Counted from the first letter of the stretch, positions 2,107-19,241 are shown. The stretch is DNA of 23,643 bases from Candidatus Caldarchaeum sp. (GCA_038885755.1 JAVZZH010000007.1:1-23643); one strand, 5' to 3'. The notes: generated by a model not told the origin, from the letters alone. Program-made: numbers and translations.

Positions 2107-2114
2107 TTTATAAA
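2107..2114 (-). promoter_or_regulatory. TATA box (TTTATAAA) for rpl10e-rnhA, overlapping the mscS stop codon
   Basis: Lies ~26 nt upstream of ATG 2081, the typical archaeal leaderless spacing. Confidence 0.55.
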
Positions 2115-3007
2115 CTGTTCTGGATGCTCGAAGCCCTCATAGCGCGGTGAACCTCGATGACGGCTGTCAAAATCCTAGACTTCACATCCCTCCATGTGTC
2201 AGGCGGAGCGTCGAAGACGACGGCCACTATGTAGTGGGTTTTGTCGCTCTGTTCCTCGAGGTAGACTTCCTTCACCTCTCGGAACGCGGCCAGCTGGCTC
2301 CTAACCTTGGCGACAACCTCCGCCGGGCTGAAGTCCAGCGGAAACTCGTACCGAAGCTTCCGCACTCTCTCGCTAACCTCGGAGTAGTTGGCGATCGCTG
2401 AGTTGGCTAGGATCAAGTTGTTGGGTATCTTGACAACCAGCCCGTCGTCTGTCACCAGAGTCGTGTACATGAGGCTCATGTTCTCGACAACGCCTGTATA
2501 GGCTGGGACGACGTAGTCTCTGGAGAAGAACTTGTAGCCGGGGAGGAAGGCCCACTGGTAGGGGATGGAGCTGGTGATGACGCCCACTCGGTCTCCTATC
2601 TTGAAAGGCCTCGACACGAGAATGATTATTCCAGCGATTATGTTGGACAGAGTTGTCTGGCCTGCAAGGCCTATGACGAGCCCTGTCAAAGTGCCTCCCG
2701 CCAGCGCTGTCTCAGGCGGCACTCCGAGGGAGCCCAGCACGAAGGCGGCTACCGCGATGTATCCCAGCAGCTGGATCGTCAGCGAGACTCCTATGGCCTG
2801 CTGTCCAACGAGAGGCTTGAAAGTTCTCACTGTGTAGGAGCTTATCAACCTGACGATGGAAACTCCGGCGAAGACAACGATCAATACGTAGACCATGCGT
2901 TCAGCGTTGGCAGGCAGCAAACCCAGTTGCGAGAAGGCGTAGACCGTCAGGTAGAGGCCTACGGCGAGGGCCACGACCGTGAATATGTGAAGCCTTATCC
3001 TCTGCAT
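2108..3007 (-). CDS. mscS: Small-conductance mechanosensitive channel (MscS family)
   Basis: N-terminal TM helices, then GLVIGLAGQTTLSNIIAGIIILVSRPFKIGDRV and T..DG..VKIPNN. Confidence 0.9.
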   Translation of the reverse strand: MQRIRLHIFTVVALAVGLYLTVYAFSQLGLLPANAERMVYVLIVVFAGVSIVRLISSYTVRTFKPLVGQQAIGVSLTIQLLGYIAVAAFVLGSLGVPPETALAGGTLTGLVIGLAGQTTLSNIIAGIIILVSRPFKIGDRVGVITSSIPYQWAFLPGYKFFSRDYVVPAYTGVVENMSLMYTTLVTDDGLVVKIPNNLILANSAIANYSEVSERVRKLRYEFPLDFSPAEVVAKVRSQLAAFREVKEVYLEEQSDKTHYIVAVVFDAPPDTWRDVKSRILTAVIEVHRAMRASSIQNSL

Positions 3008-8713: not shown

Positions 8714-8971
8714 CTAGCTCTGAGACTCCGGTGGTGATGTCTCGGCCAAGGCCGCGGCATCCGCAGCGGCTTTCGCCTTCTTCATTTCAAGCTTCTTCAA
8801 AGCCACGAGGTACCCCGCTATCCTGTTCGACAGCTTCTTCGAATACCTCCCCTCCAGAACGCTCCTCACCAGCTTCTTGTTCTCCTCGAAGCTTATCGTT
8901 ATCTTGTCGGAGTTCTTCTCCATAATCTCCCTAGCCAGCGTCTTTATCTTACGCGTCCTCACCTTGCCCAG
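8714..8971 (-). CDS. rps17e: 30S ribosomal protein S17e (probable CTG start at 8971; GTG 8962 is the alternative)
   Basis: (M)GKVRTRKIKTLAREI...FEENKKLV...SKKLSNRIAGY. An SD-like AGGTGA lies 7 nt upstream of the CTG. Confidence 0.92.
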   Translation of the reverse strand: MGKVRTRKIKTLAREIMEKNSDKITISFEENKKLVRSVLEGRYSKKLSNRIAGYLVALKKLEMKKAKAAADAAALAETSPPESQS

Positions 8972-9007
8972 AAATCTATCACCTAGGCTCTCGGGGCTCT
9001 GCGCAGA

Positions 9008-9013
9008 TTTAAA
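9008..9013. promoter_or_regulatory. Palindromic TTTAAA box, likely shared by divergent rps17e and the glycosyltransferase operon
   Basis: ~27 nt before TTG 9040. On the minus strand it gives a short leader containing AGGTGA. Confidence 0.5.
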
Positions 9014-9039
9014 GATTAAGACGCGGGCTTATCAAAGGC

Positions 9040-10065
9040 TTGAGGGAAGTGTTCGACGTTGTTCTGGTGTCGCCGACCAGCCGCGGCATGGGAGGGATAG
9101 CGCAGCATGTCGAGGGGTTGGCAATCCGCTTGGCCCGTAGAGGCTACCGGGTCTGCACAGTGTCGTCCGAGAACACGCCCATAGTGAGGGTCAAGGGCCT
9201 CAGGAACCCTTCGTTCATGGTTTCGTCGACCTTACGGTCTTTCTCGATGCGGGCGAGGGTTGTCCACGCCCACAACATCCCAGCCGCCCCGGCTATGAGG
9301 TTCTCGGATGCTGGTCGCCGGGTCCTCACCCTCCACGGCGTTTACGCTGAGCAGGTGGGTCTGCTGCACGGAGGCTTGCTGGGGGCGGCGGCATCGCTTG
9401 CTGAGAGAGTGTCTGTCAGGTGGGCTGACGTCTCGACGACCGTCTCACGTCAAGTGGCTGAGGCTTACAGGAAGCTCGGGCTCGAAGTGGTTTACGTGCC
9501 CAACGCCGTCGACGTTGCAGGGGATGAGTTGGAGGCTTTTAGGGTTGGCGCGGTTCAAGCAGTCTACGTGGGCCGTCTCTCGAGGGAGAAGAACGTCGAG
9601 GCAGTGGTAGAACTAGCTCGGAGAATTCAAGGAGCTACGTTCCTAGTGGTGGGGGATGGGCCTGAAGCTGGAAGGCTCAGGCAGAAGGCGAAAGACGTTA
9701 AGAACATCGTCTTCACCGGTGGAGTTTCTCGGAAAAATGCTTTAAAATACATAAAGGGCTCGGACGTGCTCGTCCTCCCCTCTTTGATGGAAGGTTTGAG
9801 CACAGTAGTGCTGGAAGCCATGGCTCTGAAGACCCCCGTCGTAGCCAGCAAGGTCGGGGGGAACGTGGAGCTCATTCAGGACGGCCGGACTGGCCTGCTT
9901 GTCAACCCTAAGGACGTCGAAGACCTCACGGAAGCGGTTTCAACCATCCTCAACGACAGGCCGCTAGCCCGCAGGATCGCCGAAAACGCATACCGGCATT
10001 TCTTGGAAAACTACTCATGGGACGTCGTCCTCCCCAAATACCTGAAGGTGTACGGCCTTGAGTAG
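9040..10065 (+). CDS. GT-B fold glycosyltransferase, family 4
   Basis: GGIAQHV, VVHAH, TLHG, VPNAVD, YVGRLSREKN, VVGDGP, LPSLMEGLSTVVLEAMA (E-x7-E), VGGNVELI. Confidence 0.93.
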   Translation: MREVFDVVLVSPTSRGMGGIAQHVEGLAIRLARRGYRVCTVSSENTPIVRVKGLRNPSFMVSSTLRSFSMRARVVHAHNIPAAPAMRFSDAGRRVLTLHGVYAEQVGLLHGGLLGAAASLAERVSVRWADVSTTVSRQVAEAYRKLGLEVVYVPNAVDVAGDELEAFRVGAVQAVYVGRLSREKNVEAVVELARRIQGATFLVVGDGPEAGRLRQKAKDVKNIVFTGGVSRKNALKYIKGSDVLVLPSLMEGLSTVVLEAMALKTPVVASKVGGNVELIQDGRTGLLVNPKDVEDLTEAVSTILNDRPLARRIAENAYRHFLENYSWDVVLPKYLKVYGLE

Positions 10066-10969
10066 GGTTGTGATCACCGGCGGAGCGGGTTTCATCGGGT
10101 CAAGAGTTGTCGTCAAGTTTCTCGAGCAAGGCTACAGCGTTGACGTGGTTGACGACTTCTCGACCGGCGAGCCGGAGAGCTTGCCGGCTCATCCGAGGCT
10201 CAGGGTCTTTGTGCACGACGTAAGTGTCGAGGAAGGGTTGGAGAAGTTTGTGAAAGGCGCCGATGCCGTGGTGCATCTGGCTGCGGTTTCATCCGTTCCA
10301 GCATGCGAGAGAGACGTCAAGCGGGCTTTCGAGGTCAACGTCAAGGGTGTGGAGAACGTGGCTAGAGCCTGCTTAAGGGCGGGCGTCGAGAGGATTGTCT
10401 TCAGCTCCTCAGCCGCAGTATACGGCGGGGGAGACCTCCTAACCGAGACCAGCCCAACCAACCCAGTCTCCGTCTATGGAAACACTAAGCTGGTCGCCGA
10501 GGAGATGCTGAGATGCTTGAGCGAGGAGGAGAATGTCTGCACCACGGTGCTCAGGATATTCAACGTGTACGGGAGAGTAAGACCCGGCAGGGGAGTTTAC
10601 GGAGTGGTCGACCAGTTCATCGCAGACGCCCTCTCCACAGGCTGTTTGAAAGTCTTCGGAGACGGAAGACAGGTCCGGGACTTCATCCACGTCGACGATG
10701 TTGCTGAGGCGGTTCTCAGGGCCGTCGTTAACGCTGCCGACGGTTATCGAGTCTTCAACATCGGTTCGGGGCAGGGCGTATCAGTGGCCGAGCTAGCCCA
10801 ACTCATCCAAGCATCGATACCATTCCGGAAGATAGAGGTCGTACACCTGCCCGCAAGGCCAGCCGACATCAAGCAAAGCGTAGCCGACCTTTCGAAGGCG
10901 TTCAAGCATCTCGGGTTCAAGCCCAAGTTTAATCTTAAAACCTACATCGAGCAACGACTAAGAGGATGA
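10058..10969 (+). CDS. NAD-dependent nucleotide-sugar epimerase/dehydratase (extended SDR, GalE-like)
   Basis: TGGAGFIG, HLAA, SSAAVYG, YGNTK (YxxxK), FNVYG, GDGRQVRDFIHVDD. Confidence 0.93.
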   Translation: MSRVVITGGAGFIGSRVVVKFLEQGYSVDVVDDFSTGEPESLPAHPRLRVFVHDVSVEEGLEKFVKGADAVVHLAAVSSVPACERDVKRAFEVNVKGVENVARACLRAGVERIVFSSSAAVYGGGDLLTETSPTNPVSVYGNTKLVAEEMLRCLSEEENVCTTVLRIFNVYGRVRPGRGVYGVVDQFIADALSTGCLKVFGDGRQVRDFIHVDDVAEAVLRAVVNAADGYRVFNIGSGQGVSVAELAQLIQASIPFRKIEVVHLPARPADIKQSVADLSKAFKHLGFKPKFNLKTYIEQRLRG

Positions 10970-10976
10970 TTAGGAC

Positions 10977-11660
10977 TTGGTCTTGTCTGCTAAAATCTTC
11001 GAGCTCAAACAGCAAGCCTCCCTCATGGAGATAGCTGAGAAGCTGAAGGACTTCAGGGTCTCGGAGACGCAGAAACATGGCGACAAGGAGTTTGAGCTCG
11101 TCACGGATTTGACGGACCTTGACCTTAAGAACGATGCTCTCTACTGCACGTTTTCCAAGGACAAGGTAATCTATGTCAACCGGAGGGAGGGCCTGACGCC
11201 TATGGTTGCAACCGTGAAGGCGACGATCTTCTTCCAGAAAAGGAACAACAAGACCTATCTCACGGTTGTGCAGAACAAGCACTTCGCCAACTACGTGGCC
11301 AGCTTCCTGTCGCATCACCTCTTTCTCAACTACAGAAGCATAGTGGAGGCCCGGATACCGCCGGAAAACCTTCAAAGACACCACGAGGCCAACCCCGAAG
11401 CGACCAAGGTCATCTTCTTCGACAACCTCGACTACCCGGGAGTAGACAAAGTCGCCCTGTACGGCAAATCCCTGATATCCACGGGGAAGTATGAAGAGTA
11501 TCTGGCTCATGGCAAGATATGGTACCTCGTCTTCTCCGTCAAGGGAGCCAACGCCGTACTAGGGGCGACTAGGAACGGGGTCGTCGTGTCTTTCTCCCGC
11601 ATGTCTGAGGGCCAGTTCATTCAGTACATTCTGGACAACGTGTTCCCGCTTCTGGACTAG
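10977..11660 (+). CDS. Hypothetical protein (227 aa), co-oriented with the GT/epimerase genes
   Basis: Long ORF with host-like codons. A conservatively substituted relic copy at 13299-13539 indicates selection on this frame. Confidence 0.85.
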   Translation: MVLSAKIFELKQQASLMEIAEKLKDFRVSETQKHGDKEFELVTDLTDLDLKNDALYCTFSKDKVIYVNRREGLTPMVATVKATIFFQKRNNKTYLTVVQNKHFANYVASFLSHHLFLNYRSIVEARIPPENLQRHHEANPEATKVIFFDNLDYPGVDKVALYGKSLISTGKYEEYLAHGKIWYLVFSVKGANAVLGATRNGVVVSFSRMSEGQFIQYILDNVFPLLD

Positions 11661-11944
11661 ATTACCGCCTCCTATGCGACCCCCGCCAGCTTCAGGTAAA
11701 CCCTCTCCATGATGTGTGATGCGAGCAACCCGGCTACGGCCGGGCTCAACAGGTAGATGGTAGGCTTCAACGTCGCAAAGCCTCCTTCAATCTTCTCCAC
11801 ACATACATCGGCTGTCGGGCGCCATCTCGCCCTTGGCTAATTCAGTGCTGTCTTCATCAACACGAGCTTGGCGTCGGCCATGCTCATCTGCCTGCCGTTG
11901 ACCTTCATCCTCACAGTCAGGACTTCTGCGCCAGACCTCGTCAT
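11657..11944 (-). pseudogene. Displaced 3' fragment of the MscS-like gene (homologous to 13536-13829)
   Basis: Reads MTRSGAEVLTVRMKVNGRQMSMADAKLVLMKT/TELAKGEMAPD/ADVCVEKIEGGFATLKPTIYLLSPAVAGLLASHIMERVYLKLAGVA*EAVI*, with two frameshifts and one internal stop relative to the intact copy. Confidence 0.92.
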
Positions 11945-11987
11945 GAAAATAAATCTCTATATGGTGCTTCCGTAGATTTTCCTTGGT

Positions 11988-12953
11988 ATGCGGCTGTATT
12001 CTGACAGGCTTAAAGTATTTGGTATCATCGCCCTCGTTCTGATTGGTGTAATAGGGTATGTTCATGGTCAAACCACCATCACCACAACCACCACCCGTGT
12101 GATAACGGTTCAGCCAACCACCTACACCACGGAGACGACAATCTCCGGCACGACAATCATAGCCACCGTGCAGGTTCCCGGCTACGTCTTGGTGATTGAG
12201 GTGAGGCAGCCCGACCAAGTCTGCACATACACTTTCACGGCCCAAGCCCCACCGTCAGTGATAACAATTCCCGGGACAACAATATCTATACCCGGAATCA
12301 CGTTCACCACTGTTTTCACCCAGCAAAGCTATGCGACCACCGTGACACGGGTTCAAGGCGGGTCAACAGCAACCCGAACAGGGATTGAAAACATGCCTGT
12401 GGTCGTCGGCGGTTTCACCATGACGATGCCCGTCTACGGCCAAATCCGGGAAATCTGCAGCATCATCACCATCACTGATATATTGTCCTACGTCCTTCAA
12501 ACTGTTCCAGCCACTGTAGTGGTGGCGGTTGGCGGGTTTTCCACAACCTTCACCGGAACAACATTCACCCTGACAGGAGTGTATCCGACAATCACATTGA
12601 CGACGACAGGAGTTAGCACAGTTAAAGGAACTACTGAAAGACGTTCAATAACTTTTCCAGGCACGTTTTTCACCACGACTGAAGTTGTCAGCCCTACTAC
12701 GTTAAAAAAGACTGAGGTCGTTCCGGGGACTACGAGAACCGAGACCATCACAACCGTCATAACCCTTCAGCAGACCACGTCGCCGGCTACAACAACACCG
12801 ACGCCTACGACAGGCGTTGCTACACAGCCTCAGACAACCTTTCAAACCATTACACAGCCAGCTCAAGCACCCGCCTTAGACATCCTGATACCGATAGCTG
12901 CGGTCATCGTAGTGGTTATCGTAGTGATCTTGGCGTTGAGATTGAGAGGTTGA
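11988..12953 (+). CDS. Thr/Val/Ile-rich cell-surface protein with signal peptide and C-terminal membrane anchor
   Basis: N-terminal basic plus hydrophobic signal ending VHG-Q, a beta-prone Thr-rich body, a T/P/Q linker, and TM ILIPIAAVIVVVIVVILAL with a basic RLRG tail. Confidence 0.88.
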   Translation: MRLYSDRLKVFGIIALVLIGVIGYVHGQTTITTTTTRVITVQPTTYTTETTISGTTIIATVQVPGYVLVIEVRQPDQVCTYTFTAQAPPSVITIPGTTISIPGITFTTVFTQQSYATTVTRVQGGSTATRTGIENMPVVVGGFTMTMPVYGQIREICSIITITDILSYVLQTVPATVVVAVGGFSTTFTGTTFTLTGVYPTITLTTTGVSTVKGTTERRSITFPGTFFTTTEVVSPTTLKKTEVVPGTTRTETITTVITLQQTTSPATTTPTPTTGVATQPQTTFQTITQPAQAPALDILIPIAAVIVVVIVVILALRLRG

Positions 12954-12961
12954 CGGCTAAG

Positions 12962-13296
12962 CTTGGGAGGCTTTATCAGCAAAGTTAAGGGATTAGGGTT
13001 TGGCAGCGACGTGTCAGCTGCGCGAAGCCAACTTCGCGACAGTGGGGGGCGGGGCTGATTTTTACAGGCTTAAGAAGGATTGGAGAACGTTCTCTTCACA
13101 GGCGAGGTTAGCAACGGAAAGGGCCCCGGATACATCGCTGCTTGTCCTTCCACCGCTCGTGGAAGGGCTTTAGCACTGTTGTGCTTAAAGCCATGGCCTG
13201 TCAAACCCCTGTGGCTGCAACCGATGTAGGCGGTAGCACACAACCCCTCGTAGAAGCAATAACGAAGGTTCTTGGCGACAGACGGTTTGCTGAAAG
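12962..13296 (+). pseudogene. Decayed C-terminal half of a GT4 glycosyltransferase (homologous to ~9568-9972)
   Basis: Frameshifted pieces LGRL, QLREANFATVGGGADFYRLKK, LENVLFTGEVS, LLVLPPLVEGL/STVVLKAMACQTPVAATDVGG and LVEAITKVLGDRRFAE are collinear with the intact GT. Confidence 0.85.
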
Positions 13297-13298
13297 CT

Positions 13299-13539
13299 TT
13301 CTACAGCCTTGACATCCCGGGATTGGACAAGGTCTCACTCTATGGCTGGTCGCTGATATCTACAGGTTTCCCGTGAGCCAGACACTCTCCATACTTATCT
13401 GGTATCTTGTCTTCTCGGTCAAAGGCTCCGATGCTGTTCTAGGCGTCGCGAGAAGCTGCGTCGTGGTTGCTTTCTCCGGATGGTCGAGGCTCAGTTCGTC
13501 CAATACTTTCTTGACAACATTTTCCGGTTAATCGATTAG
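13299..13539 (+). pseudogene. Decayed 3' end of the 10977-11660 hypothetical gene (homologous to ~11418-11660), containing a ~30-bp inversion
   Basis: FYSLDIPGLDKVSLYGWSLISTG [inverted KYGECLAHGK] IWYLVFSVKGSDAVLGVARSCVVVAFS/MVEAQFVQYFLDNIFRLID*, versus intact FDNLDYPGVDKVALYGKSLISTGKYEEYLAHGKIWYLVFSVKG...LDNVFPLLD*. Confidence 0.92.
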
Positions 13540-14273
13540 GTCATGGCCTCTGTAGCTACCTCCGCAAGCTTGACGTATACACGCTCCATGATGTGTGAGG
13601 CAAGCGCCTCGGCTTTAGCTGGATTCATCAGATAGAGAGTGAGACGCAGCGTCACATAGTCGCCGTCAATCTTCTCGACACGTACCTCAGCAGCTCTGTT
13701 GGGAGCCATCTCACCCTTCGCCAAATCCGTTCCCGTTTTTAACAGCACTAGCTTTGCATCAGCCATGCTTATCTGCCTTCCGTTGACCTTTATCCTCACA
13801 GTCAGGACTCCTGCGCCAGACCTCGTCATATTGACATGCTTCTCGGCGAGGAAAACGTCGTTGGGTACGAGGACCTTCCTCAGGTCCGAGGTTGTCAGGA
13901 CTGTGTGCGTCGCACCAACCTCTGAAACTCTAGCCGTCTGCTTTCCGAGGACTATGTAGTCTCCTTCCCTCAGAACTCCGCCGGCCTTCAACGCGTCGCC
14001 GACGACAACCAGTTTTAGAGGCTTGTAGCCCGCTGCCAGTAGGACGCAGATTGACGCCGTCAGCAGCAGGCCTAGGGCTTGGTCAAGCTTGTAGGCCTCG
14101 AACACGAGGAGACCCAGCCCTGCGATGAAGGAGAAAACCCCGCCCAGCCTCACGAACCCTCCCAGCCTCGGTGAGAACAGGTCGGATAAAGGGCCTAGGA
14201 AAACCCTCGACACGATAGACAAGCCTAGGAGAGTTAGGGGCCAGAGATAGGCGGCAGCCTCCGGGCTAAGCAT
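13536..14273 (-). CDS. MscS-like mechanosensitive channel family protein (probably chimeric)
   Basis: Three N-terminal hydrophobic segments, LREGDYIVLG, RVSEVGATHTVLTTSDLRKVLVPN (MscS beta-domain pattern) and a C-terminal alpha/beta domain. Confidence 0.8.
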   Translation of the reverse strand: MLSPEAAAYLWPLTLLGLSIVSRVFLGPLSDLFSPRLGGFVRLGGVFSFIAGLGLLVFEAYKLDQALGLLLTASICVLLAAGYKPLKLVVVGDALKAGGVLREGDYIVLGKQTARVSEVGATHTVLTTSDLRKVLVPNDVFLAEKHVNMTRSGAGVLTVRIKVNGRQISMADAKLVLLKTGTDLAKGEMAPNRAAEVRVEKIDGDYVTLRLTLYLMNPAKAEALASHIMERVYVKLAEVATEAMT

Positions 14274-17594: not shown

Positions 17595-17741
17595 GCTGGA
17601 TAACGACTCATCAATCCGTATTTTAGGATGCTTTTAGATGGTTTAATCACGTCGTTGGCCGGGATATTATCATGACCGGCGTTTCAGAGGAGACTGACTG
17701 GCTCCACACGATGAGAGCGGTTGGGGGACGGCGGCAGCAGT

Positions 17742-17756
17742 CGAAACATTTTTATA
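17742..17756 (+). promoter_or_regulatory. BRE/TATA (cgaaacattTTTATA) for the CFI-box surface protein
   Basis: TATA ends ~25 nt upstream of ATG 17781, preceded by a purine-rich BRE-like run. Confidence 0.6.
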
Positions 17757-17780
17757 CTATTTGTTGGGCTGCCAATCGTT

Positions 17781-19241
17781 ATGAAGTGTATAGCTATCGC
17801 GGCTTCATGCTTAATTGCATTAGCCGCTGCTCTACCCGTTGTCTTTTCGCAGGAGGAGATAGCCATATACAACCTAATTTCGAGAGCCAACGACCCAAGG
17901 ACCGTGTGGGCAACCTGCACACTCCCCACCTGCGCCGACTACGCTGAAATAACGTTCGGAGACATGAGCCCGGTAGGCGGTGCTCGATACCACCTCAACG
18001 ACGTTCTCAACGACGGGAATGTCCACAGCTGGGTTCTTGAGACTCATCCCAAATGGGTTGACAACGGCTATATCCAAGGCTGGTATCACGACCCGGTCTA
18101 TGTTCCGGCCAGCGGTGCGAAGCTGAGAGTACTCGTAGGCTTTCGCCAAGGAGCTGGAGCTGGAAGAGCCACTGTGCAGATAAACCTCGTCGTCCCGGGG
18201 TCCAGCCCGCCGACATTAATACCGTTGCTCAACCAAGAAATAGCTTATTCGGACGGTGTGAGGGAGTTCACTGTCGACCTTCCCCCCGAGACACGTGGGA
18301 ACGCGTATGAGATAGCCCTGATTGCCATGGCCGGTGAAACTTCCGCCCAAGACTGGGTTGCTTGGTCAAGAATTTGGATTACCGCTAGGGTTGGATCAGT
18401 TTCCACCACAACTTCAACCACGACGGTTAGACAGACCTCCACCACGACTCAGACAACTACCGCGACAACAACTATAGCCATGGGAACAACCGCCACAGTG
18501 ACGCAGACCACAGCCGTCACTAGAGTTGAGACCCTGCCCACAACAATAACTCAGACTGTTCAGTCCCCTACAACTAGAGTCGAGACAACCACTCAAACCC
18601 TAACCAACACAGTCACGCAGATCCAGCCTACTGTAATCGTTCAGACCGTGACCGCGCAGGGAGGATTGACTTCCAGATGTCTGATAGCCACCGCAGCTTT
18701 TGGGTCCGAGCTCGACCCATCTGTCAAAATGCTCAGGCAGTTCAGGGACGGGTTTGTCCTGCAGACCTTCTCCGGGAAAACATTCATGGACGTGTTCAAC
18801 GCCTTCTATTACTCGTGGAGCCCTGCCGTGGCTGAAGCCGAGTACGCCAACCAAGGCTTCAGGACGATGATCAAGTACTCCATATACCCGCTGCTCGGAG
18901 TTCTTCATCTATCTCAGGCCGCGGCAACTCCCTTGACGCCTGTCAACCCAGAGCTTGCGGTTTTAGTCGCCGGCTTGACGGCTTCATTCCTGTTGGGGGT
19001 TGTCTATCTATCGATTCCGCTAATGGCTGTGCGGATGTTTCTGAAAGTCAGGACGGGGATTAGGGTTAGACACGTGCTGCTGATGCTGGTGGGTGCTCTA
19101 TGCCTGTTTGCTGCCGCCCTCACCCTCTACCACCCGTTGATGATGGCCGTCGCAAGCTCCGCAGTTGTTCTGACCACACTGTTCATCGGCGCATACAGCC
19201 CAACAATATTAATAAGCCGAGCGTCTGGAAGGAAAACCTAA
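17781..19241 (+). CDS. Secreted/surface protein: beta-sandwich-like domain, Thr-rich stalk, CFI-box-CTERM domain and C-terminal TM helices
   Basis: Signal peptide MKCIAIAASCLIALAAALPVVFS. CLIATAAFGSELDPSVKMLRQFRD...FNAFYYSWSPAVA is the CFI-box-CTERM signature. Start moved from 17721 to ATG 17781. Confidence 0.88.
   Translation: MKCIAIAASCLIALAAALPVVFSQEEIAIYNLISRANDPRTVWATCTLPTCADYAEITFGDMSPVGGARYHLNDVLNDGNVHSWVLETHPKWVDNGYIQGWYHDPVYVPASGAKLRVLVGFRQGAGAGRATVQINLVVPGSSPPTLIPLLNQEIAYSDGVREFTVDLPPETRGNAYEIALIAMAGETSAQDWVAWSRIWITARVGSVSTTTSTTTVRQTSTTTQTTTATTTIAMGTTATVTQTTAVTRVETLPTTITQTVQSPTTRVETTTQTLTNTVTQIQPTVIVQTVTAQGGLTSRCLIATAAFGSELDPSVKMLRQFRDGFVLQTFSGKTFMDVFNAFYYSWSPAVAEAEYANQGFRTMIKYSIYPLLGVLHLSQAAATPLTPVNPELAVLVAGLTASFLLGVVYLSIPLMAVRMFLKVRTGIRVRHVLLMLVGALCLFAAALTLYHPLMMAVASSAVVLTTLFIGAYSPTILISRASGRKT

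What the first reader, a model, noticed from the sequence alone, without database searches (positions are those of the whole stretch)
11657..13829. Additive integration of syntenic DNA from a related lineage: reciprocal pseudogene pair, cargo gene and chimeric mscS
Seen: the convergent junction 'hypothetical gene -> <- mscS' occurs twice, with the same 4-nt stop overlap (11657-11660 and 13536-13539). On the left the hypothetical gene is intact and the mscS 3' end is dead. On the right mscS is intact, and the hypothetical and GT copies are dead. The copies differ mainly at third codon positions or by conservative changes (GCC GAC GCC AAG CTC vs GCT GAT GCA AAG CTA), so both evolved under selection before decaying, which does not fit a recent tandem duplication. 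The dead mscS end has the C/G-ending codons typical of this window, while the live 3' end has more A/T-ending and CGT codons. Inference: donor DNA from a related species (Thr-rich gene, GT, probably epimerase, hypothetical gene, mscS 3' end) entered by a single crossover inside mscS. That replaced the gene's 3' end, and only the surface-protein gene and the new mscS tail survived. No integrase or transposase is present in the window.
Basis: partly seen in the sequence, partly recalled or inferred. Interest (0 to 1): 0.8.

Follow-up and report, generated by a model that had tools for sequence, protein, structure and literature searches.

The report
Foreign gene block spliced into mscS
A hot-spring archaeon took up a stretch of DNA from a distant cousin species by recombining inside a channel gene, which left a hybrid working gene, one new surface-protein gene and several decaying leftovers; it is a clear natural example of a process already known from bacteria.

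Summary
The 'Hyp -> <- mscS' junction occurs twice (13299-13829 matches 11418-11944, 73% nt, E 2e-70), and a GT fragment lies beside the second copy.

The genome is a Candidatus Caldarchaeum MAG.
- **Native copy.** The left copy (GT, epimerase, Hyp, dead mscS tail 11657-11944) matches the closest relatives G002 and G004. Both have the empty site.
- **Foreign segment.** 11945-13761 comes from a G003/G007-like congener. The backbone is only about 70% identical to that lineage; the insert is 84-90% identical.
- **Origin tests.** Informative sites, trees, AU tests, GC3 and dS all agree. An in-lineage duplication is rejected (p-AU 1e-82).

- The exchange lies in a 26-nt identical stretch (13762-13787, codons 163-171), not at 13829/30.
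- The 42 nt beyond it are native in both copies, so a simple single crossover with a circle fails.
- The left joint (11944|11945) is illegitimate. It fuses mscS codon 149 to the donor's Thr-gene promoter.

No integrase, transposase or tRNA was found. Independently built contigs from two studies bridge the left joint, and contigs of one of them bridge the exchange.

This works like homology-facilitated illegitimate recombination, with a displaced 'orphan' 3' end. It is a known kind of event, here in an uncultured archaeon. The scan noted a similar scar before in another genome (e1-4411253).

The parts
8717..9021 (-). Small conserved ORF between FEN1 and GT (context). The donor's copy of it was lost from the insert.
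   Evidence: 8717-9021 aligns to the spacer before GT in all 9 relatives; an open frame lies on the minus strand.
9040..10065 (+). Native GT4-type glycosyltransferase, intact
   Evidence: PF00534, E 6.8e-38. 94.7% aa to G002 and 58% to G003. dS to G002 is 0.26.
10058..10969 (+). Native NAD-dependent epimerase/dehydratase, intact
   Evidence: PF01370, E 3.7e-57. 92.7% aa to G002.
10977..11660 (+). Native hypothetical gene (Hyp), intact, no Pfam family
   Evidence: 97.4% aa to G002 and G004. Groups with G002/G004 at 100/99 support. No Pfam hit.
11657..11944 (-). Orphaned native mscS 3' end (codons 149-245). Dead: no 5' part, a 1-nt and a 5-nt deletion, and a premature TAG.
   Evidence: 90.9% nt to G002 against 70.7% to G003. 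36 native and 0 donor informative sites, plus 6 and 0 in the last 68 nt. Differences to G002 fall 5/8/8 by codon position. Translation.
11944..11945 (.). Left, illegitimate joint: mscS codon 149 fused to the donor's spacer upstream of the Thr-rich gene
   Evidence: Homology between the copies ends here. From 11945 on the sequence aligns to the FEN1-Thr spacer of G003, G007 and G005. Bridged by exact contigs in X1, X3 and X5.
11945..11987 (+). Donor-derived 43-nt upstream region of the Thr-rich gene. It has an A/T-rich, TATA-like element at the same distance from the ATG as in G003, G007 and G005; its role as promoter is inferred.
   Evidence: Alignment and raw sequences.
11988..12953 (+). Cargo: intact Thr-rich gene (321 aa) with an N-terminal hydrophobic helix, a predicted all-beta middle and a C-terminal TM helix. 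Putative surface (glyco)protein.
   Evidence: 84% nt and 83% aa to G003. dS 0.45 and dN/dS 0.22 against G003. Family limited to Caldarchaeum/Aigarchaeota hypothetical proteins. AF2 model of low confidence, pLDDT 57.
12954..12995 (+). Donor 3' flank of the Thr-rich gene, followed by a deletion of about 815 nt relative to G003 (small ORF and the first ~555 nt of GT)
   Evidence: Comparison with G003.
12996..13311 (+). Donor GT pseudogene fragment (about nt 560-950 of 1023) with internal deletions of 10, 11 and 51 nt and a 1-nt insertion
   Evidence: Aligns to GT of G003 and G007 far better than to the native GT. BLAST 74-86% to G003.
13299..13539 (+). Donor Hyp pseudogene fragment (last ~80 codons) with frameshifts and a 29-nt inversion at 13368-13396. 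It follows a 1.44-kb deletion (GT 3' end, all of the epimerase, Hyp 5' part).
   Evidence: 21 donor against 6 native informative sites. Inverted match. Deletion joint.
13536..13761 (-). Donor-derived, live 3' part of mscS (codons 172-245)
   Evidence: 90% nt to G007 and G003. 30 donor against 7 native sites. aa 172-245 are 72/74 identical to G007 and 61/74 to G002. Differences to G003 fall 3/0/22 by codon position. GC3 0.58.
13762..13787 (.). Exchange interval: 26 nt identical between the native type (G002) and the donor type (G007; 25/26 in G003). Covers codons 163-171.
   Evidence: Last donor-type site is 13761 and first native-type site is 13788; alignment.
13788..14273 (-). Native 5' part of mscS (codons 1-162). 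Its first 42 nt (13788-13829) are duplicated as 11903-11944.
   Evidence: Native against donor informative sites: 6 and 0 in 13762-13829, 126 and 5 in 13830-14273. aa 1-162 are 151/162 identical to G002 and 87/162 to G003. PF00924 beta-domain at aa 102-151.

Best explanation
The structure is the scar of a chromosomal gene transfer between two Candidatus Caldarchaeum species, made without any mobile element. A piece of DNA of about 4 kb came from a congener related to G003/G007. It carried the Thr-rich surface-protein gene with its promoter, a small ORF, GT, epimerase, Hyp and the 3' end of mscS. It was joined to the recipient chromosome at two points. On the right there was a homologous exchange inside mscS, within a 26-nt stretch identical in both lineages (13762-13787). 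On the left there was an illegitimate joint that fused recipient mscS codon 149 (11944) to the donor's spacer 43 nt upstream of the Thr-rich gene (11945). The illegitimate joint lies 42-68 nt beyond the exchange point, so that piece of native mscS is present twice and no recipient DNA was lost. The most economical way to get this is one event in which the incoming fragment bridged two copies of the recipient chromosome; this step is inferred. The native mscS tail was orphaned at once. mscS continued as a chimera whose last 74 codons are foreign. The redundant donor GT, epimerase, small ORF and Hyp then decayed through two large and several small deletions, frameshifts and a 29-nt inversion. 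The Thr-rich gene stayed under purifying selection; the recipient's clade lacks this gene at its ancestral site next to FEN1. Shown here: the origin of each segment, both joints, the decay and the empty sites in relatives. Inferred: the one-step bridging mechanism, the route of DNA entry, the original content of the fragment, and the adaptive value of the cargo.
For: Synteny: in 9 of 9 relatives' loci Hyp and mscS converge once only. The Thr-rich gene lies between FEN1 and GT in 6 of 9 (G003, G005, G007, G008, G009, G011) and is absent there in the 3 closest (G002, G004, G006) and in the window. Segment origin: 11601-11944 is 91% identical to G002 and 71% to G003; 11988-12956 is 84% to G003 with no match in G002 or G004; 13397-13835 is 85% to G003. 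The backbone is about 95% identical to G002 and about 70% to G003. Backbone dS to G003 is saturated (1.8-4.2), while the Thr-rich gene has dS 0.45. Informative sites in the live gene are 30 donor to 7 native in 13536-13761, against 5 donor and 132 native-type sites in 13762-14273 (Fisher p 6e-22 on its 13787-14273 part). AU tests reject the two tails as sisters (p 1e-82), the live tail inside the G002/G004 clade (p 0.0009-0.0018), and the 5' part with the donor clade (p 0.0014). No other donor-type tract of more than 3 sites occurs among 1721 informative sites in the flanks. Decay: dead tail against G002 gives 13 changes at positions 1+2 and 8 at position 3, against 4 and 15 for G002 versus G004 (p 0.012). 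Reality of the DNA: Logan contigs with 0 differences span 11603-14100 (X1), 11606-13721 and 13694-14100 (X3), and, in another study, 11855-12176 and 12154-13698 (X5). The exact Thr-rich protein is on record on 10 contigs, the longest 294 kb. No integrase or transposase in 23 ORFs and no tRNA.
Against: The donor itself is not sampled; the nearest genome, G003, is still 10-16% different in the insert. Microhomology at the left joint therefore cannot be read, and the donor's gene content is inferred from relatives. In the tail tree the live copy sits in an unresolved polytomy with G003, G007, G005 and the stem of the native clade. A position as sister of the whole native clade including G006 is not rejected, although the Thr-rich gene points to a G003-like donor. 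Classical HFIR deletes recipient DNA rather than duplicating it. The one-step model needs two chromosome copies in the cell, which is not known for this organism. The read evidence consists of assembled contigs, not raw reads. In X5 no exact contig across the exchange interval was among the rows shown (9 rows not shown). The excess of position 1+2 changes in the Hyp pseudogene is not significant (p 0.06 and 0.24).
Confidence: 0.78

Rival explanations
1. Two-step history. First, an ordinary double-crossover replacement put the donor block (Thr-rich gene through the mscS tail up to 13761) in place of the native genes. Later, a native-type block (small ORF, GT, epimerase, Hyp, mscS tail up to codon 149) from a conspecific or G002-like cell was inserted between FEN1 and the Thr-rich gene by classical HFIR: a homologous anchor in or left of FEN1 and an illegitimate joint at 11944|11945.
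For: It explains why 13788-13829 and 11903-11944 are both native-type. It needs only a single chromosome copy and the textbook HFIR topology (abstract of PMC3240628). The left block is uniformly G002-like (754 native, 27 donor and 37 other among 818 informative sites).
Against: It needs two transfers and four joints instead of one transfer and two joints. The second event's homologous tract would have had to erase every donor-type site left of the Thr-rich gene: 208 of 226 informative sites in FEN1 and its spacer are native, with no donor run longer than 3. dS of GT, epimerase and Hyp to G002 (0.13-0.26) does not differ from that of FEN1 (0.17), so nothing marks the left block as a newcomer.
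Confidence: 0.14
2. Campbell-type additive integration. A circularised donor fragment integrated by one reciprocal crossover inside mscS, and later gene conversion made the end of the left copy native-type.
For: Direct repeats of the homologous segment flank the insert, and nothing of the recipient is lost.
Against: The product should carry donor-type sequence between the crossover and the end of the left copy. That stretch (11877-11944) has 6 native and 0 donor informative sites and differs from the live copy at 4 of 68 positions. The rescue by gene conversion is ad hoc.
Confidence: 0.04
3. Tandem duplication within the lineage, followed by divergence and decay of the copies, with no foreign DNA.
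For: The two copies are direct repeats 1885 nt apart.
Against: The copies are not each other's closest relatives (AU p 1e-82). The right copy is 84-90% identical to G003/G007, while the backbone is about 70%. The Thr-rich gene has no native counterpart at this locus in G002 or G004. GC3 of the live tail equals that of the donor clade.
Confidence: 0.01
4. Assembly or binning artefact: a chimeric contig built from two co-occurring Caldarchaeum species.
For: The genome is a 10-contig MAG, 86.5% complete. Run X5 also holds a more abundant G002-like relative (75-90x against about 25x).
Against: A collinear chimera would not duplicate the junction, and it would carry intact donor genes rather than fragments with indels and an inversion. 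Contigs assembled per run bridge the left joint in 3 of 4 runs laid, from two studies, with 0 differences, and bridge the exchange interval in X1 and X3. Depth along the insert in X5 is even at 23-25x.
Confidence: 0.03

Closest known systems
Homology-facilitated illegitimate recombination (HFIR), described in naturally transformable bacteria and in E. coli conjugation (PMC3240628, abstract seen in the search listing; de Vries & Wackernagel 2002 and Prudhomme et al. 2002, seen only as references inside PMC5361080)
   Same: Foreign DNA is integrated with a homologous exchange at one end and an illegitimate joint at the other. No recombinase or mobile element is involved. The donor is a related species.
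   Different: Here recipient DNA is duplicated (42-68 nt of mscS, with the whole native block kept) rather than deleted. The homologous anchor may be as short as a 26-nt identity island in sequence that is otherwise about 75% identical. The host is an uncultured archaeon with no known DNA-uptake route.
Displaced 'orphan' 3' ends at Rhs, CdiA and T6SS effector loci (passages of PMC5361080 read)
   Same: A new 3' end arrives with linked downstream genes. The old 3' end is pushed downstream and kept as a promoterless fragment that still carries a piece of the conserved upstream part. HFIR is the proposed mechanism.
   Different: The gene is a housekeeping MscS-type channel, not a polymorphic toxin. 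The cargo is a surface-protein gene, not an immunity gene. There is no array of successive displacements.
Transformation-triggered merodiploids in Streptococcus pneumoniae (PMC3784515, abstract and section 9 read)
   Same: A single donor fragment bridges two sister chromatids and yields a tandem partial duplication without loss of recipient genes. This is the topology needed for the one-step model.
   Different: There, both pairings are homologous (IS-derived repeats) and the duplications span 100-900 kb of self DNA. Here one joint is illegitimate, the duplicated unit is about 4 kb, and one copy is foreign.
Earlier finding of this scan, e1-4411253 (a 4.6-kb operon inserted after rplK in a Patescibacteria genome)
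   Same: An insertion bounded by a duplicated, chimeric gene tail with no integrase, read as an HFIR-like scar.
   Different: It is in another domain of life and another gene, and I did not re-examine it. The present case adds an identified donor clade and dated decay of the redundant copies.

Membership tests
HFIR product | One end of the foreign DNA is joined by homologous exchange in sequence shared by donor and recipient | tested here: met
   The switch from donor-type to native-type sites falls between 13761 and 13788, inside a 26-nt identical stretch.
HFIR product | The other end is joined without homology (at most a few nt of microhomology) | tested here: met
   11944|11945 joins mscS codon 149 to the spacer upstream of the Thr-rich gene, and the sequences on the two sides are unrelated. 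The amount of microhomology cannot be read because the donor's own sequence is unknown.
HFIR product | No site-specific recombinase, transposase or att/tRNA site | tested here: met
   None of 23 ORFs scanned against Pfam; no tRNA in the window.
HFIR product | Recipient DNA between the anchor and the illegitimate joint is deleted or replaced | tested here: not met
   Nothing is deleted relative to G002 and G004, and 42-68 nt of native mscS are present twice. I therefore say it works like HFIR rather than being a textbook HFIR product.
HFIR product | Entry of linear DNA by transformation or conjugation | not testable with these tools
   The route of DNA entry in Caldarchaeum is unknown.
Campbell-type single-crossover integration of a circle | Reciprocal hybrid repeats: the left repeat turns donor-type after the crossover and the right repeat turns native-type | tested here: not met
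   The left repeat is native-type throughout (36 native and 0 donor sites, then 6 and 0).
In-lineage tandem duplication | The two copies are each other's closest relatives | tested here: not met
   AU test p 1e-82 against sister copies. The copies fall in different clades.
Orphan 3'-end displacement as at Rhs/CdiA/T6SS loci | A new 3' end plus cargo lies next to the gene body, and the old 3' end sits downstream with a piece of conserved upstream sequence | tested here: met
   In the direction of mscS, the order is native 5' part, donor tail, donor genes, native tail beginning with 42-68 nt duplicated from the gene body.
Orphan 3'-end displacement as at Rhs/CdiA/T6SS loci | The gene is a polymorphic toxin with a cognate immunity gene | tested here: not met
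   The gene matches the MscS beta-domain PF00924 (26.5 bits, cut-off 20.2). The cargo has no Pfam family.
MscS-type mechanosensitive channel (the chimeric gene) | Match to the MS_channel beta-domain above Pfam's gathering score, and full length like its orthologues | tested here: met
   PF00924 at aa 102-151, 26.5 bits against 20.2. The protein has 245 aa, against about 244-246 aa in 6 relatives. Channel activity was not tested.

The most novel reading that the evidence does not exclude
Caldarchaeum cells in hot springs exchange chromosomal DNA directly across species that share only about 70% nucleotide identity. A few tens of identical bases serve as the only anchor, and the incoming strand bridges two chromosome copies in one step. 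By this route a lineage that had lost a surface-protein gene regained it. The insert also exchanged the C-terminal 74 residues, most of the cytoplasmic part, of an MscS channel at a domain boundary. If this is general, short-anchor additive recombination would be a routine, element-free way of gene gain, and of reversing gene loss, in uncultured thermophilic archaea.
Probability: 0.3. Interest if true: 0.55.

Novelty: new member of a known kind. Interest (0 to 1): 0.38.

Why it matters
It is a well-preserved natural record of how an archaeon with no known competence system or mobile element at the site gained a gene from a distant congener. Both joints can be read almost to the base, the donor clade is identified, and empty sites exist in sister species. 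The later fate of every redundant copy is visible. It shows that about 26 nt of identity can anchor exchange between genomes that are about 70% identical. It also shows that a domain-level chimera of a housekeeping channel was kept: its donor-derived tail still shows the pattern of purifying selection. The case bears on species barriers and on reversal of gene loss in hot-spring archaea. The mechanism itself is already known from bacteria.

Tried and rejected
- **Closer donor or second composite.** A scan of JGI metagenome contigs with the Thr-rich protein gave 285 pattern matches, none confirmed. The protein search found nothing between the exact protein and 74% identity. The genus holds only 13 species genomes in the collection, and G003 remains the nearest.
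- **Function of the Thr-rich protein and Hyp.** Neither has a Pfam family. The Atlas gave no usable hit for the Thr-rich protein and only unnamed clusters for Hyp. The AF2 model of the Thr-rich protein has pLDDT 57, too poor for a fold search, so none was run.
- **Other donor-type tracts in the flanks** that could separate the one-step from the two-step history: none longer than 3 sites.
- **Microhomology at the left joint:** cannot be read without the donor sequence.
- **Run X7** holds only about a fifth of the words at 2-4x depth and adds nothing.
- **Excess of first and second codon-position changes in the Hyp pseudogene:** not significant.
- **Literature.** Searches for HFIR together with archaea (23 papers, 10 listed) and for Caldiarchaeum with gene transfer and recombination (10 papers) showed no paper on such an event in this group among the titles and abstracts listed. 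I read none of those papers in full.
- **Failed call.** One search failed on a word limit and was re-sent.


Full report
**Observation.** The window is the whole of contig C7 of a 1.33-Mb, 10-contig genome, 86.5% complete. Source names of related proteins, and earlier notes on this genome, place it in Candidatus Caldarchaeum.

- Self-comparison confirms the repeat. 13397-13829 matches 11517-11944 (73.3%, E 1.8e-70), 13299-13363 matches 11418-11482, and 13139-13197 matches 9767-9824 inside the GT gene.
- Both Hyp/mscS junctions have stop codons overlapping in four letters.
- On the left, Hyp is intact. The mscS piece covers only codons 149-245 and carries a 1-nt deletion, a 5-nt deletion and a premature TAG.
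- On the right, mscS is a full 245-aa ORF with the MscS beta-domain. The Hyp and GT copies there are fragments.

**Context.** I fetched the locus from nine congeners and mapped the window's proteins on them.

- The order in the genus is CDC48-like ATPase, a small ORF, FEN1 (reverse), [Thr-rich gene], a small reverse ORF, GT, epimerase, Hyp, mscS (reverse), a zinc-ribbon protein (reverse), then a spermidine-synthase-like protein.
- Hyp and mscS converge only once in 9 of 9 relatives.
- The Thr-rich gene sits between FEN1 and GT in 6 of 9 (G003, G005, G007, G008, G009, G011).
- It is absent there in the three closest relatives (G002, G004, G006) and in the window. G002 and G004 are therefore the empty site.
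- A search with the Thr-rich protein found no copy anywhere in G002 (93% complete) or G004 (92% complete). It found one 54%-identical copy at an unrelated locus in G006.

**Origin of the two copies.** The window's backbone is about 95% identical to G002 and about 70% to G003, G007 and G005. Synonymous divergence from G003 is saturated, at dS 1.8-4.2.

- *Left copy.* It behaves like the backbone. The dead tail is 91% identical to G002 and 71% to G003. It has 36 native-type and 0 donor-type informative sites and groups with G002/G004 (96/94 support for the tail, 100/99 for Hyp).
- *Thr-rich gene.* It is 84% identical to G003, with dS 0.45 and dN/dS 0.22.
- *Donor pseudogenes.* The GT fragment aligns to the GT of G003 and G007, not to the native GT. 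The Hyp fragment has 21 donor-type against 6 native-type sites.
- *Live mscS tail (13536-13761).* It is 90% identical to G007 and G003, with 30 donor-type against 7 native-type sites.
- *Live mscS 5' part.* Beyond the exchange point, 13762-14273 holds 132 native-type and 5 donor-type sites (Fisher p 6e-22 on its 13787-14273 part).
- *Protein level.* Residues 1-162 are 151/162 identical to G002 and 87/162 to G003. Residues 172-245 are 72/74 identical to G007 and 61/74 to G002.
- *Codon usage.* GC3 of the live tail (0.58) equals that of G003 and G007 (0.57-0.58). The native type has 0.68-0.74.
- *AU tests.* They reject the two tails as sisters (p 1e-82), the live tail inside the G002/G004 clade (p 0.0009-0.0018), and the 5' part with the donor clade (p 0.0014).
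- *What stays open.* The live tail's exact place among G003, G007, G005 and the stem of the native clade is unresolved. A position as sister to the whole native clade including G006 is not rejected. The donor is an unsampled lineage; on the evidence of the Thr-rich gene it is nearest to G003.

**Joints.**

- *Right joint.* The last donor-type site is 13761 and the first native-type site is 13788. The 26 nt between them are identical in G002 and G007, and 25 of 26 in G003. They cover codons 163-171, just after the beta-domain (aa 102-151). That this is the boundary to the C-terminal cytoplasmic domain rests on my recollection of MscS architecture.
- *Left joint.* The repeat ends at 11944/13829, which is codon 149. 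From 11945 on, the sequence aligns with the spacer upstream of the Thr-rich gene in G003, G007 and G005, including an A/T-rich element at a conserved distance from the ATG.
- *Why a single crossover fails.* Both 11903-11944 and 13788-13829 are native-type (6 native and 0 donor sites each). One reciprocal crossover with a circular donor would have left donor-type sequence at the end of the left copy. The left joint must therefore be illegitimate.
- *Extent of the tract.* Among 1721 informative sites in the flanks, no donor-type run exceeds 3 sites. The foreign tract is confined to 11945-13761.

**Decay.** If the donor was organised like G003, the fragment measured about 4.1-4.2 kb. About 1.82 kb remains.

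- Missing are about 815 nt (the small ORF and the 5' part of GT) and 1.44 kb (the 3' end of GT, the epimerase, and the 5' part of Hyp). The second deletion has about 3 nt of microhomology at its joint.
- The GT remnant has further deletions of 10, 11 and 51 nt and a 1-nt insertion.
- The Hyp remnant contains a 29-nt inversion at 13368-13396.
- The dead native tail differs from G002 at 5/8/8 sites by codon position, against 4/0/15 for G002 versus G004 (p 0.012). The live tail differs from G003 at 3/0/22 sites, so it is under purifying selection.
- The dead tail's rate at positions 1+2 (0.09) is about half the raw third-position divergence between G000 and G002 (0.18), i.e. about one lineage's share. 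The event therefore probably dates from about the time the two species split, or soon after. This is a rough inference from few sites.

**Is the DNA real?** Seven public hot-spring runs from three studies hold at least part of the stretch. Four were laid.

- X1: a 2835-nt contig covers 11603-14100 with no difference.
- X3: contigs cover 11606-13721 and 13694-14100.
- X5, from another study: contigs cover 11855-12176, across the left joint, and 12154-13698, both without differences and at an even 23-25x. A G002-like relative is present in the same run at 75-90x.
- These are per-run assemblies, not raw reads, and X1 and X3 may be source samples.
- In X5 no exact contig across the exchange interval was among the rows shown.
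- The exact Thr-rich protein is on record on 10 contigs, the longest 294 kb.
- A collinear co-assembly chimera would not produce a duplicated junction or fragmentary genes.

**Mechanism.** I favour a single event. An incoming linear fragment paired with mscS through the short identical stretch, and its other end was joined illegitimately to a second copy of the recipient chromosome at codon 149. The result is an additive product. This follows the topology shown experimentally for transformation-induced merodiploids in pneumococcus (PMC3784515, abstract and section 9), combined with the one-sided homology of HFIR (PMC3240628, abstract).

The main rival is a two-step history: replacement by the donor block, then HFIR re-insertion of a native block anchored in FEN1. 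It fits the same sites but needs twice as many joints and has left no trace.

Neither a Campbell-type integration, nor an in-lineage duplication, nor an assembly artefact fits the tests above.

**Comparison with known cases.** The architecture is that of displaced 'orphan' 3' ends at Rhs, CdiA and T6SS effector loci, for which HFIR has been proposed (PMC5361080, passages). In the direction of the gene it reads: gene body, new tail, new downstream genes, then the old tail carrying a piece of the gene body. It is not a member of those systems, because the gene is an MscS-type channel and the cargo is an uncharacterised Thr-rich protein.

- The cargo has terminal hydrophobic helices and a predicted all-beta middle, from a low-confidence model.
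- No integrase, transposase or tRNA is present.
- The scan had noted a similar scar after rplK in a Patescibacteria genome (e1-4411253), which I did not re-examine.
- My two searches for HFIR with archaea, and for Caldiarchaeum with gene transfer and recombination, listed no paper describing such an event in this group (listings only).

**Verdict.** The reading as foreign syntenic DNA is right, and the proposed single crossover is not. The event is a clear archaeal example of a known kind of element-free gene gain. Interest is moderate.

Noticed in passing
window 13368-13396: A 29-nt segment of the donor-derived Hyp pseudogene is inverted relative to the native Hyp (11487-11515, 86% complementary). 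Of the 9 relatives compared, 5 gave an inverted match at the thresholds used. It is a small inversion inside a decaying gene.
   Followed up: partly
L032 (G006:C125) 661-1674: G006 lacks the Thr-rich gene at the FEN1-GT site. It carries a 54%-identical homologue at an unrelated locus, inserted between sequences syntenic to G000 C1:113042-113269 and C1:113472-115167. G000 has only about 200 nt there. The gene family appears to move between loci in this clade.
   Followed up: partly
window 17721-19241: A 506-aa ORF with no Pfam family is only 78-89% nt (82% aa) identical to G002, while its neighbours are about 95%. It has no counterpart at the syntenic place in G003, G007 or G005. This is a second variable spot in an otherwise conserved contig.
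   Followed up: no
window 8717-9021, minus strand: A small ORF of about 70-95 aa in the FEN1-GT spacer is conserved at the nucleotide level in all 9 relatives examined. Its function is unknown.
   Followed up: no
window 2108-3007, minus strand: A second, larger MscS-family gene (299 aa, PF00924, E 3e-15) lies 10 kb away, so the chimeric mscS is not the only channel of this type in the contig.
   Followed up: no
window 11400-14100 in run X5: In the independent run X5 a G002-like relative (variant contigs at 75-90x) co-occurs with the window's organism (about 25x). Close species therefore share the spring, which gives opportunity for exchange.
   Followed up: no
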